Part shown: in pieces, positions 17,591 through 50,875 of the stretch
Layout of the letters: each line of letters begins with the position of its first letter
How positions within the stretch are numbered: position 1 is the first letter of the stretch
NCBI RefSeq assembly: GCF_048403405.1
Contig: NZ_CP183129.1
Origin: Escherichia coli
Lineage (GTDB): Bacteria; Pseudomonadota; Gammaproteobacteria; Enterobacterales; Enterobacteriaceae
Reading direction: 5' to 3' (one strand)
DNA: 64,000 bases
Program-made: the position numbers and the translations under genes
The notes under the pieces: generated by a model
The model's database searches: none
Told to the model about the DNA's origin: nothing
Seen by the model: only the letters and a program-made list of their open reading frames with translations

Positions 17591-17629
17591 AAAGGCCAGT
17601 CTCAAGCGAGGCTGGCCTTTTTCTTTTGG
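17591..17629. terminator. Rho-independent terminator between convergent rpoS and the MarR-like gene
   Basis: AAAGGCCAG (17591-17599) pairs with CTGGCCTTT (17612-17620), followed by TTCTTTTGG; A-run before and T-run after allow either direction. Confidence 0.6.
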
Positions 17630-20516: not shown

Positions 20517-20550
20517 ATAAAAGGTCCGATGCCCATCGGACCTTTTTATT
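20517..20550. terminator. Bidirectional rho-independent terminator between ecdD and ygbN
   Basis: GGTCCGATG / CATCGGACC stem flanked by an A-run upstream and TTTTTATT downstream. Confidence 0.65.
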
Positions 20551-27261: not shown

Positions 27262-27366
27262 GGTTTTACCCTGTAAAATAAGATTTCCTATTATACAGGG
27301 TGTTTTTATTTGATTCGTCAGTTGTCGTTAATATTCCCGATAGCAAAAGACTATCGGGAATTGTTA

Positions 27367-30559: not shown

Positions 30560-30563
30560 ATCT

Positions 30564-30586
30564 GCCGGAGAGCCATACTCTCCGGC
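30564..30586. terminator. Hairpin between convergent ygbA and the molbindin gene
   Basis: GCCGGAGAG / CTCTCCGGC stem with A/T-rich flanks on both sides. Confidence 0.45.
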
Positions 30587-30597
30587 AAATAAGGCGC

Positions 30598-44451: not shown

Positions 44452-44914
44452 CGTTTTACTCTGTGTTGGCAATAGCATGATGGGCGATGATGGCGCAGGT
44501 CCGCTGCTGGCGGAAAAGTGTGCCGCCGCGCCGAAAGGTAACTGGGTGGTGATTGACGGCGGTAGCGCACCGGAAAACGACATCGTCGCTATTCGCGAAC
44601 TGCGCCCGACACGACTGTTGATTGTCGACGCCACGGATATGGGGCTAAACCCCGGCGAGATCCGCATCATCGATCCGGATGATATCGCCGAGATGTTTAT
44701 GATGACTACCCATAACATGCCGTTGAACTACCTTATCGACCAGTTGAAAGAAGACATTGGCGAAGTGATTTTCCTCGGCATCCAGCCGGATATCGTCGGC
44801 TTTTACTACCCGATGACCCAGCCGATTAAAGACGCCGTAGAAACCGTTTATCAACGACTGGAAGGCTGGGAACGGAATGGCGGATTCGCGCAGTTAGCGG
44901 TGGAAGAAGAGTAG
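44444..44914 (+). CDS. hycI: Hydrogenase 3 maturation protease HycI
   Basis: 156 aa ORF, last gene of hyc. Confidence 0.9.
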   Translation: MTDVLLCVGNSMMGDDGAGPLLAEKCAAAPKGNWVVIDGGSAPENDIVAIRELRPTRLLIVDATDMGLNPGEIRIIDPDDIAEMFMMTTHNMPLNYLIDQLKEDIGEVIFLGIQPDIVGFYYPMTQPIKDAVETVYQRLEGWERNGGFAQLAVEEE

Positions 44915-44970
44915 TTCGTAGACAAACATGTTCACGTTTTGGAATTTGGACGTGCAATTGTGACGTGTAG

Positions 44971-44999
44971 ACGGGTGTTTACATATTGTGAACACCCGT
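44971..44999. promoter_or_regulatory. Imperfect 29-bp palindrome upstream of the higB-like gene (candidate operator)
   Basis: ACGGGTGTTTACA-TAT-TGTGAACACCCGT, one mismatch between arms, 82 bp upstream of the toxin ATG. Confidence 0.35.
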
Positions 45000-45080
45000 G
45001 TGATCAACTACTATAGAAAAATAAATCCGAAGGAATGGTAGTCCAGGTTTAGTCATTCAGGCGCTAATAAGGAAGTTAAA

Positions 45081-45392
45081 ATGCACATCATTTCGAAAGC
45101 GCCATTTGAAGAGTGTGCGCGCAAATATCCTAACGACGCTCTGGCTCTACACTCATTGTATCGGGTTATTAAGGAAACGGATTTTTCTACACCAGAAGAA
45201 ATGCGAACGGCGTTTCCTAACCTCGACAATTTTAAATATCGCAACAAATGGTACGTTCTGGATGTCGGCGGGAACAATCTTAGGGTTATTGCCTACATAA
45301 ACTTTGTTAATAAGCGGTTCTTTGTGAAGCACATAACGAATCACGCAGAGTATGACAAACTGACACGTTACTACAGAGAGAACAAAGAATGA
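45081..45392 (+). CDS. HigB-like type II toxin (RelE/ParE superfamily)
   Basis: 103 aa ORF; resembles remembered HigB (FPNLDNFKY...VLDVGGNNLRVIA); AAGGAAG RBS; stop overlaps antitoxin start (ATGA). Confidence 0.8.
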   Translation: MHIISKAPFEECARKYPNDALALHSLYRVIKETDFSTPEEMRTAFPNLDNFKYRNKWYVLDVGGNNLRVIAYINFVNKRFFVKHITNHAEYDKLTRYYRENKE

Positions 45393-45808
45393 CTGCTAAT
45401 GCTGCACGCGCTGTTAAAGCAACAAGAGAACTGGTCAATGCAGTCCCCTTTCTGGGAGGCAGTGACTCAGAAGATGATTATCGTGAAGCACTGGAACTGG
45501 TCGAATATTTGATTGAAGAAGATGACACCAATCCACTTATCGACTTTCTGGCGAGCCGCATTGCAGAATATGAAAACAACAACGAAAAGTTTGCAGAGTT
45601 CGACAAAGCCGTTGCAGCAATGCCGGTTGGCGTGGCGTTACTTCGTACGCTGATTGATCAACATAATTTGACCTATGCGGATTTGAAGAACGAAATCGGC
45701 TCTAAATCTCTGGTCAGTCAGATTTTGTCTGGGCAACGATCCCTGACGATATCCCATATTAAGGCACTTTCAGCCCGATTTGGCGTTAAGCCGGAATGGT
45801 TTCTTTGA
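45389..45808 (+). CDS. HigA-like antitoxin (HTH)
   Basis: 139 aa ORF coupled to the toxin; C-terminal HTH-like segment (IGSKSLVSQILSGQRSLTISHIKALSARFGV). Confidence 0.8.
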   Translation: MTANAARAVKATRELVNAVPFLGGSDSEDDYREALELVEYLIEEDDTNPLIDFLASRIAEYENNNEKFAEFDKAVAAMPVGVALLRTLIDQHNLTYADLKNEIGSKSLVSQILSGQRSLTISHIKALSARFGVKPEWFL

Positions 45809-45886
45809 TTTTGACTGATGCCAAACCCAAGATTGCCCGATGCGCAACGCTTATCGGGCTTTCCTGGTTCGTGCGACGGTAGTTAC

Positions 45887-50060: not shown

Positions 50061-50095
50061 ATGTCATCGTCACTAGTGTCGATGACATCGTTTTT
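50061..50095 (+). terminator. Rho-independent terminator after ascG
   Basis: ATGTCATCG / CGATGACAT stem followed by CGTTTTT, 14 nt after the ascG stop. Confidence 0.55.
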
Positions 50096-50723: not shown

Positions 50724-50875
50724 AAATCTTACAGAACTGTTCTGGCATCAAAGGAATTCCCGGAAATATTCGTAGAATACGGAGCGGGCGGTATCGCCGA
50801 CCTGTGATTGCCGGATACGACGCTGTCGTGTCCGGCAGGGCGGGTTACGCAATTCATGATGGCGGGAATAACTCA

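What the first reader, a model, noticed from the sequence alone, without database searches (positions are those of the whole stretch)
44971..44999. 29-bp near-perfect palindrome upstream of the toxin gene
ACGGGTGTTTACA-TAT-TGTGAACACCCGT lies 82 bp upstream of the higB-like ATG, where an autoregulatory antitoxin operator would be expected. It is preceded by repeated CACGT/ACGTG motifs at 44930-44968.
Basis: seen in the sequence. Interest (0 to 1): 0.3.

Follow-up and report, generated by a model that had tools for sequence, protein, structure and literature searches.

The report
HigA antitoxin operator upstream of higBA
The 29-bp palindrome is almost certainly the binding site through which the HigA antitoxin switches off its own toxin-antitoxin operon, which is an ordinary, well-understood kind of control element and here a one-site version of a normally two-site design.

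Summary
The palindrome is real: ACGGGTGTTTACA-TAT-TGTGAACACCCGT at 44971-44999, with 12 of 13 arm pairs. It lies 82 bp upstream of a HigB (PF09907)/HigA (HTH_3) pair inserted between hycI and ascB of E. coli. Its inner 17 bp, GTTTACAtatTGTGAAC, match a motif (GTTnnCn-N3-nGnnAAC) that I found upstream of higB in all 85 family loci examined. The motif is about 960-fold enriched over the flanks. Its variable dinucleotide changes in step with a residue of the HigA recognition helix.

In relatives the site overlaps the -35 box, and a second site follows the -10 box. The window keeps the same geometry (TTGTGA-17-TACTAT) but has only the first site.

The outer 6 bp of each arm are specific to this lineage. 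They are broken in one E. coli variant and absent in about 746 genomes that keep only the core. The CACGT repeats are present but are neither conserved nor significant.

Verdict: this is the cognate HigA operator (O1), a new member of a known kind. Binding and the transcription start were not tested. Interest is low.

The parts
44971..44999 (.). 29-bp near-perfect palindrome (13-bp arms, 3-nt spacer, 1 mismatch)
44977..44993 (.). 17-bp core operator GTTTACA-tat-TGTGAAC (family motif GTTnnCn-N3-nGnnAAC). Half-site centres are 10 bp apart. Inferred binding site of a HigA dimer (O1).
   Evidence: It is the only match to GTTYACA-N3-TGTRAAC in the window, even with 2 mismatches allowed. The motif is present in 85 of 85 family loci. 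The identical 19-mer GTGTTTACATATTGTGAAC is found in 1,089 E. coli genomes.
44971..44976 (.). Outer left arm ACGGGT (pairs with 44994-44999 ACCCGT). This lineage-specific extension of the palindrome has no established function.
   Evidence: It is broken in strain WL297 and absent in the ACN002/O111 type. Flanks of the core pair at chance level in two-site loci.
44994..44999 (.). Outer right arm ACCCGT, lying in the predicted -35/-10 spacer
44987..44992 (+). Predicted -35 hexamer TTGTGA, inside the right half of the operator (inferred, not mapped)
   Evidence: The homologous position is scored as TTGTGA-17-TATAGT in the E. coli sister variant, TTGTAA-17-TATAGT in L014 and TTGTCA-17-TATACT in Salmonella prophage copies. 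The window scores 8 of 12, below the scan threshold.
45010..45015 (+). Predicted -10 hexamer TACTAT, 15 nt after the operator core, the same spacing as in relatives (inferred)
45016..45080 (+). 65-nt stretch between the predicted -10 box and the ATG, with Shine-Dalgarno AGGA at 45070-45073. The second operator (O2) that relatives carry right after the -10 box is missing.
45081..45392 (+). higB-family toxin gene (103 aa)
   Evidence: PF09907, E = 3.8e-23. Matches 5IFG_A, E = 7e-22. RefSeq annotation.
45389..45808 (+). higA-family antitoxin gene (139 aa, C-terminal HTH_3). Recognition helix is GSKSLVSQILSG, with Q111.
   Evidence: PF01381, E = 2e-9. Matches 5IFG_B, E = 2.5e-35..
44917..45814 (+). 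Extent of the higBA cassette relative to strains with an empty hycI-ascB spacer
44933..44967 (.). Three CACGT/ACGTG pentamers (44933, 44950, 44963). They are present, but there is no evidence that they are a functional element.

Best explanation
The palindrome contains the cognate operator (O1) of the HigA antitoxin encoded 400 bp downstream.

Proposed mechanism: a HigA dimer, free or carrying HigB, places its two C-terminal helix-turn-helix motifs on the half-sites GTTTACA and TGTGAAC. These are 10 bp apart centre to centre, on one face of the helix. The right half-site contains the predicted -35 hexamer TTGTGA, which pairs with TACTAT 17 bp downstream. Bound HigA would therefore exclude RNA polymerase and repress higBA. 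Loss of the labile antitoxin would then derepress the operon.

Unlike most relatives, which carry a second site immediately after the -10 box, this E. coli cassette relies on one site.

Shown here:
- the sequence, its non-random nature, and the family-wide conservation and position of the motif;
- covariation of the motif with the recognition helix;
- homology of both proteins to K-12 HigB and HigA.

Inferred:
- actual binding and the promoter hexamers;
- the transcription start, predicted near 45022;
- repression.
For: - **Motif in every locus.** GTTnnCn-N3-nGnnAAC occurs within 130 nt upstream of higB in 85 of 85 loci from Enterobacterales, Vibrionales, Oceanospirillales, Pseudomonas and Burkholderiaceae, plus prophage and plasmid copies. 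Perfect-core matches number 118 in 9,690 upstream positions against 4 in 314,748 flanking positions, about 960-fold enrichment.
- **Fixed geometry.** In the window's closest relatives the order is O1, 15 nt, -10 box, O2, about 18 nt, ATG. The scan tool calls -35 inside O1 plus 17 nt plus -10 in L087, L014 and the E. coli sister variant. The window keeps the 15-nt O1-to-hexamer distance.
- **Specificity covariation.** HigA residue 111 tracks the half-site dinucleotide: Q goes with TA/CA (74 of 76 half-sites), M with CA (44 of 48), K with GA, Gly107 plus Lys111 with TC (24 of 26), and N with TT (12 of 12). The window has Q111 and TA/CA.
- **Core conservation within E. coli.** The 19-bp core is identical in 1,089 E. 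coli genomes, across two upstream contexts that are otherwise highly diverged.
- **Homology to K-12.** HigA is a 45%-identical homologue of K-12 HigA. The K-12 promoter carries the same design, GTTGCCAatcTGGCAAC plus a second site, and is repressed by HigA in vivo (PMC2814082). The family member SehB shifts its own promoter in EMSA (PMC7160566).
Against: - No binding, footprint or transcription-start data exist for this locus.
- The predicted promoter is weak, at 8 of 12 consensus matches, and was not called by the scan.
- The site is 104 bp from the ATG, further than in any close relative (35 and 73 bp), and the usual second operator is missing. Regulation may therefore differ quantitatively.
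- hyc operon read-through could place the palindrome inside a transcript. No terminator-like site was found on the + strand between hycI and higB; the two sites reported lie elsewhere.
Confidence: 0.85

Rival explanations
1. The whole 29-bp palindrome, not just the core, is the functional unit. On this reading the outer arms (ACGGGT/ACCCGT) were selected to strengthen or extend the HigA or HigB-HigA contact, or to allow cruciform or hairpin formation. That would compensate for the loss of the second operator in this lineage.
For: - Six of six outer pairs are complementary, against a chance expectation of about 0.33 consecutive pairs.
- Long extensions are seen only in the window lineage (6), K-12 O1 (5) and the single-operator Burkholderiaceae loci (7).
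- In the Burkholderiaceae loci the outer arms differ between species by compensatory double changes: GGCAGAA, GGAAGAA, GGCCGGA and GGCGGAA.
- Single-site loci average 2.5 extra pairs, against 0.4 in two-site loci.
Against: - This amounts to only two or three independent lineages.
- Within E. coli the outer arms are not conserved. WL297 has two changes in the right arm, and the roughly 746 genomes of the ACN002/O111 type also have a single site but no extension.
- Other single-site loci (Pantoea, Mixta, Pseudomonas) have 7-8-bp arms only.
- Template-switch correction of quasi-palindromes could produce the same pattern without selection. That mechanism rests on general knowledge and was not tested here.
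Confidence: 0.15
2. The palindrome acts as an RNA or DNA hairpin, either as a terminator or processing signal for hyc operon read-through or as a stabilising 5' structure, rather than as a protein-binding site.
For: - The cassette is inserted directly after the hycI stop, upstream of the hairpin that follows hycI in empty-site strains.
- The stem is stable, at -11.7 kcal/mol as DNA.
Against: - There is no T-run on either strand, and no terminator-like site was called there.
- There is no Rfam match.
- The stem-forming outer arms are not conserved, whereas the sequence-specific core is. The core is conserved in cassettes in unrelated genomic contexts where no hyc operon is upstream.
Confidence: 0.04
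3. The palindrome is a site for something other than HigA: another transcription factor, or a recombination or integration site that marks the cassette boundary.
For: It lies near the left end of the inserted cassette, 54 bp from the boundary.
Against: - It is not at the boundary, and no matching repeat exists at the right end.
- The inverted orientation (ACA-N3-TGT) and 3-nt spacing do not fit CRP's TGTGA-N6-TCACA consensus. This rests on direct reading of the sequence and general knowledge.
- The motif travels with higBA in chromosomes, prophages and a plasmid, and covaries with HigA.
Confidence: 0.03

Closest known systems
E. coli K-12 higBA (ygjNM) promoter/operator, autoregulated by HigA (Christensen-Dalsgaard et al. 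2010, PMC2814082; structures 5IFG, 6KML)
   Same: - Same protein families: HigB PF09907, E = 7e-22 to 5IFG_A; HigA E = 2.5e-35 to 5IFG_B, 45% identity.
- Same gene order, with a 4-nt higB/higA overlap.
- Same operator design: 7-bp half-sites GTTnnCA/TGnnAAC with a 3-nt spacer, and an extended palindrome (27 bp in K-12, 29 bp here).
   Different: - Half-site specificity differs: GTTGCCA with Arg in the recognition helix in K-12, GTT(T/C)ACA with Gln111 here.
- K-12 has a second site right after the -10 box and a 29-bp site spacing. The window has one site, 104 bp from the ATG.
- The predicted -35 is in the left half-site in K-12 and in the right half-site here (inference).
- The chromosomal locus differs: fadH-rlmG in K-12, hycI-ascB here.
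Salmonella Typhimurium SehAB (HigBA-like). SehB binds the sehAB promoter (PMC7160566). The original report of two palindromes over -35 and -10, PMC3868539, is marked retracted.
   Same: The antitoxin has an N-terminal dimerisation domain and a C-terminal HTH. It represses and binds its own promoter, and HTH mutations abolish binding (PMC7160566).
   Different: SehA was not among the relatives I retrieved, so I could not inspect its operator sequence. Two sites are described there, against one here.
Proteus vulgaris (Rts1) HigB-HigA with operators O1 and O2 (PMC12266136)
   Same: It works the same way. An HTH antitoxin dimer binds inverted repeats overlapping the -35 and -10 boxes, and a single operator is reported to be sufficient for substantial repression.
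   Different: The toxin and antitoxin sequence families and the operator sequence are different. The paper states that the P. vulgaris complex does not bind the E. coli hig operators. The likeness is in how it works, not in family membership.

Membership tests
Operator of a YgjM/K-12-type HigA antitoxin (type II TA autoregulation) | [quoted passage not shown] | tested here: met
   The palindrome ends 82 bp upstream of the higB ATG, with no ORF between.
Operator of a YgjM/K-12-type HigA antitoxin (type II TA autoregulation) | Inverted repeat with half-sites one helical turn apart, as expected for an HTH dimer | tested here: met
   7-bp half-sites plus a 3-nt spacer give 10 bp centre to centre.
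Operator of a YgjM/K-12-type HigA antitoxin (type II TA autoregulation) | Matches the family motif GTTnnCn-N3-nGnnAAC conserved upstream of homologous higBA loci | tested here: met
   The window scores 8 of 8 fixed positions. 85 of 85 loci have a site, with 960-fold enrichment over flanks.
Operator of a YgjM/K-12-type HigA antitoxin (type II TA autoregulation) | Half-site sequence fits the specificity class of the adjacent HigA recognition helix | tested here: met
   Q111-type HigA goes with TA/CA half-sites in 74 of 76 cases. The window has Q111 with TA and CA.
Operator of a YgjM/K-12-type HigA antitoxin (type II TA autoregulation) | Overlaps the core promoter elements | tested here: inconclusive
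   By homology the -35 is TTGTGA inside the right half-site and the -10 is TACTAT. The window promoter scores only 8 of 12 and was not called. The transcription start is not mapped.
Operator of a YgjM/K-12-type HigA antitoxin (type II TA autoregulation) | Two operators (O1 over or near -35, O2 after -10) | tested here: not met
   There is only one site in the window, even with 2 mismatches allowed. 63 of the 82 loci scanned within 250 nt upstream of higB have two or more. This is typical of the family but not universal: 19 of the 82 had a single site.
Operator of a YgjM/K-12-type HigA antitoxin (type II TA autoregulation) | Direct, sequence-specific binding by the cognate antitoxin and repression in vivo | not testable with these tools
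   Needs EMSA or footprinting and reporter assays. Shown only for K-12 HigA (PMC2814082) and SehB (PMC7160566).
Intrinsic (rho-independent) terminator | GC-rich stem followed by a T-run | tested here: not met
   No T-run follows the stem on either strand, and the terminator scan did not report it.

The most novel reading that the evidence does not exclude
In lineages that have lost the second operator, namely this E. coli cassette and the Burkholderiaceae loci, the remaining site has been extended into a 29-31-bp perfect palindrome. On this reading the outer arms are maintained for complementarity rather than for sequence, as the compensatory changes in Burkholderiaceae suggest. That would imply a structural role, such as cruciform or hairpin extrusion, or extended symmetric contacts by the HigB2-HigA2 complex, which substitutes for two-site repression.
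Probability: 0.12. Interest if true: 0.4.

Novelty: new member of a known kind. Interest (0 to 1): 0.2.

Why it matters
It gives a concrete, testable operator and promoter model for an uncharacterised second higBA module carried by about a fifth of sequenced E. coli, including EPEC E2348/69. It also defines a family-wide HigA operator motif with a simple recognition-helix/half-site code. That code predicts that the paralogous K-12-type and hycI-ascB-type modules are transcriptionally insulated from each other. None of this changes how type II toxin-antitoxin autoregulation is understood.

Tried and rejected
- **Chance palindrome.** Rejected: 8 observed against 0.37 expected in shuffles, and the motif is conserved across the family.
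- **Terminator or known RNA.** The promoter/terminator scan and an Rfam search at E <= 1 found nothing at the site.
- **CACGT/ACGTG cluster as a second regulatory element.** The three copies are real. However, the third is lost in WL297, and the region is unrelated in the ACN002-type upstream and in other genera. Three copies of one pentamer, picked out after the fact, is not significant, so I dropped it.
- **A second operator in the window.** None was found with up to 2 mismatches. A possible relic left half-site, GTTTAGT at 45047-45053, sits at the position where relatives have O2. The surrounding similarity is at chance level, so I do not claim it.
- **Literature search.** Searches for the operator strings, the RefSeq protein accessions and hycI/ascB/toxin-antitoxin found no paper on this locus.
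- **Comparison with sehAB.** I tried to retrieve it for a direct operator comparison. The Salmonella hits were prophage-borne paralogues, not SehA.
- **CRP site.** TGTGA is present, but the orientation and spacing are wrong (direct reading of the sequence).

Full report
**Observation**

The window at 44971-44999 reads ACGGGTGTTTACA-TAT-TGTGAACACCCGT. The repeat finder reports 13-nt arms, 92% complementary, with a 3-nt spacer. Palindromes of this quality (13-bp arms, at most 1 mismatch, spacer 0-8) occur at 8 centres in the window, against 0.37 +/- 0.60 in dinucleotide-preserving shuffles. The feature is therefore not a chance event.

**Context**

The window is E. coli and is 100% identical to strain TUM14771 over the locus.

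- hycG, hycH and hycI end at 44914.
- A 103-aa ORF at 45081-45392 matches Pfam HigB_toxin PF09907 (E = 3.8e-23) and K-12 HigB (5IFG_A, E = 7e-22).
- An overlapping 139-aa ORF at 45389-45808 has a C-terminal HTH_3 and matches K-12 HigA (5IFG_B, E = 2.5e-35, 45% identity).
- ascB follows on the opposite strand.

K-12 and O157 strains have a short empty hycI-ascB spacer. The stretch from about 44917 to 45814 is therefore an inserted higBA cassette, and the palindrome lies 54 bp inside its left end.

The exact upstream region with the 29-bp palindrome occurs in 343 of 5,426 complete E. coli genomes.

**Comparative test of the operator idea**

I collected 80 loci encoding HigB relatives (53-80% identity) from the one-genome-per-species collection. 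To these I added three Salmonella prophage copies and K-12 higBA.

In every one of the 85 loci, the 130 nt upstream of higB contain at least one match to GTTnnCn-N3-nGnnAAC. Perfect-core matches number 118 in 9,690 upstream positions, against 4 in 314,748 positions elsewhere in the same loci. That is about 960-fold enrichment.

The window's inner 17 bp, GTTTACAtatTGTGAAC (44977-44993), match all 8 fixed motif positions. This is the only match to GTTYACA-N3-TGTRAAC in the 64 kb, even with two mismatches allowed.

**Promoter geometry**

In the closest relatives (Leclercia, Yokenella, Kluyvera, Citrobacter, Mangrovibacter and others) the layout is O1, 15 nt, TATAGT, O2, about 18 nt, ATG. The consensus scan places the -35 hexamer inside the right half of O1 with a 17-nt spacer:

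| Locus | -35, spacer, -10 |
|---|---|
| L014 | TTGTAA-17-TATAGT |
| Salmonella prophage copy (L087) | TTGTCA-17-TATACT |
| E. coli sister variant ACN002 (L089) | TTGTGA-17-TATAGT |
| Window (by homology) | TTGTGA (44987-44992)-17-TACTAT (45010-45015) |

The window keeps the same 15-nt distance from the core to the hexamer. Its promoter scores 8 of 12 consensus matches, just under the scan's threshold, which is why one search did not list it.

So the core operator overlaps the predicted -35 box. This assignment is inference by homology, because no transcription start is mapped for this locus.

**Specificity covariation**

I aligned the HigA proteins of these loci and sorted them by operator type. 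The variable dinucleotide of the half-site (GTT-NN-C) tracks a residue of the predicted recognition helix (GSKSLVS-Q111-ILSG in the window).

| Recognition-helix residue(s) | Half-site dinucleotide | Count |
|---|---|---|
| Gln111 | TA/CA | 74 of 76 half-sites |
| Met111 | CA | 44 of 48 |
| Lys111 | GA | 64 of 68 |
| Arg111 | GA/GC | K-12 type |
| Gly107 plus Lys111 | TC | 24 of 26 |
| Asn111 | TT | 12 of 12 |

The window has Gln111 with TA and CA half-sites. The counts are not phylogenetically independent. Even so, the pattern of several distinct switches is what a cognate protein-DNA pair would show.

**Published experiments on relatives**

- K-12 higBA is transcribed from a single mapped promoter. 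It is derepressed when the locus is deleted and repressed by HigA supplied in trans, and the authors drew inverted repeats in the promoter as putative binding sites (PMC2814082).
- The K-12 upstream sequence shows the same design: a perfect 27-bp palindrome CATCCGTTGCCA-atc-TGGCAACGGATG plus a second, weaker site after the -10 box.
- SehB, a family member, shifts its own promoter, and HTH mutations abolish binding (PMC7160566). The earlier SehAB paper, PMC3868539, is marked retracted and I do not rely on it.
- In the unrelated P. vulgaris HigBA, O1 and O2 overlap the -35 and -10 boxes, and one operator already gives strong repression (PMC12266136).

**How the window differs from relatives**

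First, it has one site, not two. Sixty-three of the 82 loci scanned within 250 nt upstream have two or more sites. In the two-site loci the spacing is 38 bp in Enterobacterales and 28-29 bp in marine gammaproteobacteria and K-12. The window's site is 104 bp from the ATG, against 73 and 35 bp in relatives. The sequence after the -10 box is an unrelated 65-nt stretch with a good Shine-Dalgarno sequence.

Second, the palindrome extends 6 bp beyond the core on each side, and that extension is lineage-specific. Strain WL297 has two substitutions in the right arm. About 746 further E. coli genomes, which carry a 250-aa hypothetical ORF between hycI and higBA, keep the identical 19-bp core GTGTTTACATATTGTGAAC in an otherwise diverged upstream region with no extension.

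Across the family, flanks of the core pair at chance level in two-site loci (0.42 consecutive pairs against 0.33 expected). Long extensions occur only in three places:

- here, with 6 pairs;
- at K-12 O1, with 5 pairs;
- in single-operator Burkholderiaceae loci, with 7 pairs and compensatory differences between species.

This may mean that extended symmetry helps a lone operator. It may equally reflect neutral quasi-palindrome correction. With two or three independent lineages I cannot decide between these.

**Rejected alternatives**

- No T-run or terminator call at the site, and no Rfam match.
- The site is not at the cassette boundary.
- The TGTGA does not form a CRP-type site.
- The CACGT cluster is not conserved in WL297, in the ACN002 type or in other genera. 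It is not significant once the after-the-fact choice of pentamer is considered.

**Verdict**

This is the HigA operator of an uncharacterised, accessory higBA module, a new member of a known kind.

The functional part is most likely the 17-bp core overlapping the -35 box. The one-site architecture and the lineage-specific arm extension are its only unusual traits. Binding, the transcription start and repression remain to be shown experimentally.

Noticed in passing
window 44915-45815; L002, L003, L004, L089, L092: The hycI-ascB spacer is a polymorphic spot in E. coli. It can be empty (K-12, O157), or carry higBA with the 29-bp palindrome (343 genomes). It can also carry a 250-aa hypothetical secreted-looking ORF plus higBA with only the 19-bp core (about 746 genomes), or a frameshifted ORF plus an orphan higA with higB deleted (O103 WL1467).
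   Followed up: partly
window 44912-44920 and 45829-45870: The cassette is inserted between the hycI stop codon and the REP-like hairpin that directly follows hycI in empty-site strains. No terminator-like site was found on the + strand between hycI and higB, so hyc operon read-through into higBA is possible.
   Followed up: no
window 45047-45053: GTTTAGT lies 34 bp from the ATG, where relatives have the left half of O2 (35 bp). The window's O1 is exactly 31 bp further from the ATG than in relatives. This may be a relic of O2 after a 31-bp insertion, but the surrounding similarity is at chance level.
   Followed up: partly
L039, L043, L045, L048, L049 (about 60 nt upstream of higB): Burkholderiaceae higBA loci have a single 31-bp perfect palindrome. 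Its core contains a consensus -35 hexamer (TTGACA). Its outer 7 bp differ between species by compensatory double substitutions (GGCAGAA, GGAAGAA, GGCCGGA, GGCGGAA).
   Followed up: partly
L086-L088 (Salmonella enterica), L074 (Candidatus Fukatsuia symbiotica plasmid): Close homologues of this higBA module sit in P22-like prophage regions next to a Cro-like gene, and on a symbiont plasmid. Each has the two-operator promoter. This shows the module moves on mobile elements.
   Followed up: no
family-wide: The commonest half-site in non-enterobacterial members, GTTGACA, contains the sigma-70 -35 consensus TTGACA itself. In those members the operator and the -35 box are the same hexamer.
   Followed up: no
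window 20518-20548, 50061-50088, 50809-50837, 59652-59680, 17591-17620, 30560-30590, 27268-27301: Seven other palindromes in the window have 13-bp arms and at most 1 mismatch. From their composition they are probably terminators or REP elements. I did not examine them.
   Followed up: no
E. coli genome collection: The K-12-type higBA (fadH-rlmG locus) is complete in 2,824 of 5,426 genomes, so many strains probably carry both paralogous modules. Their operators (GTTGCCA against GTTTACA) and recognition residues (Arg against Gln) differ, which predicts no cross-regulation.
   Followed up: no
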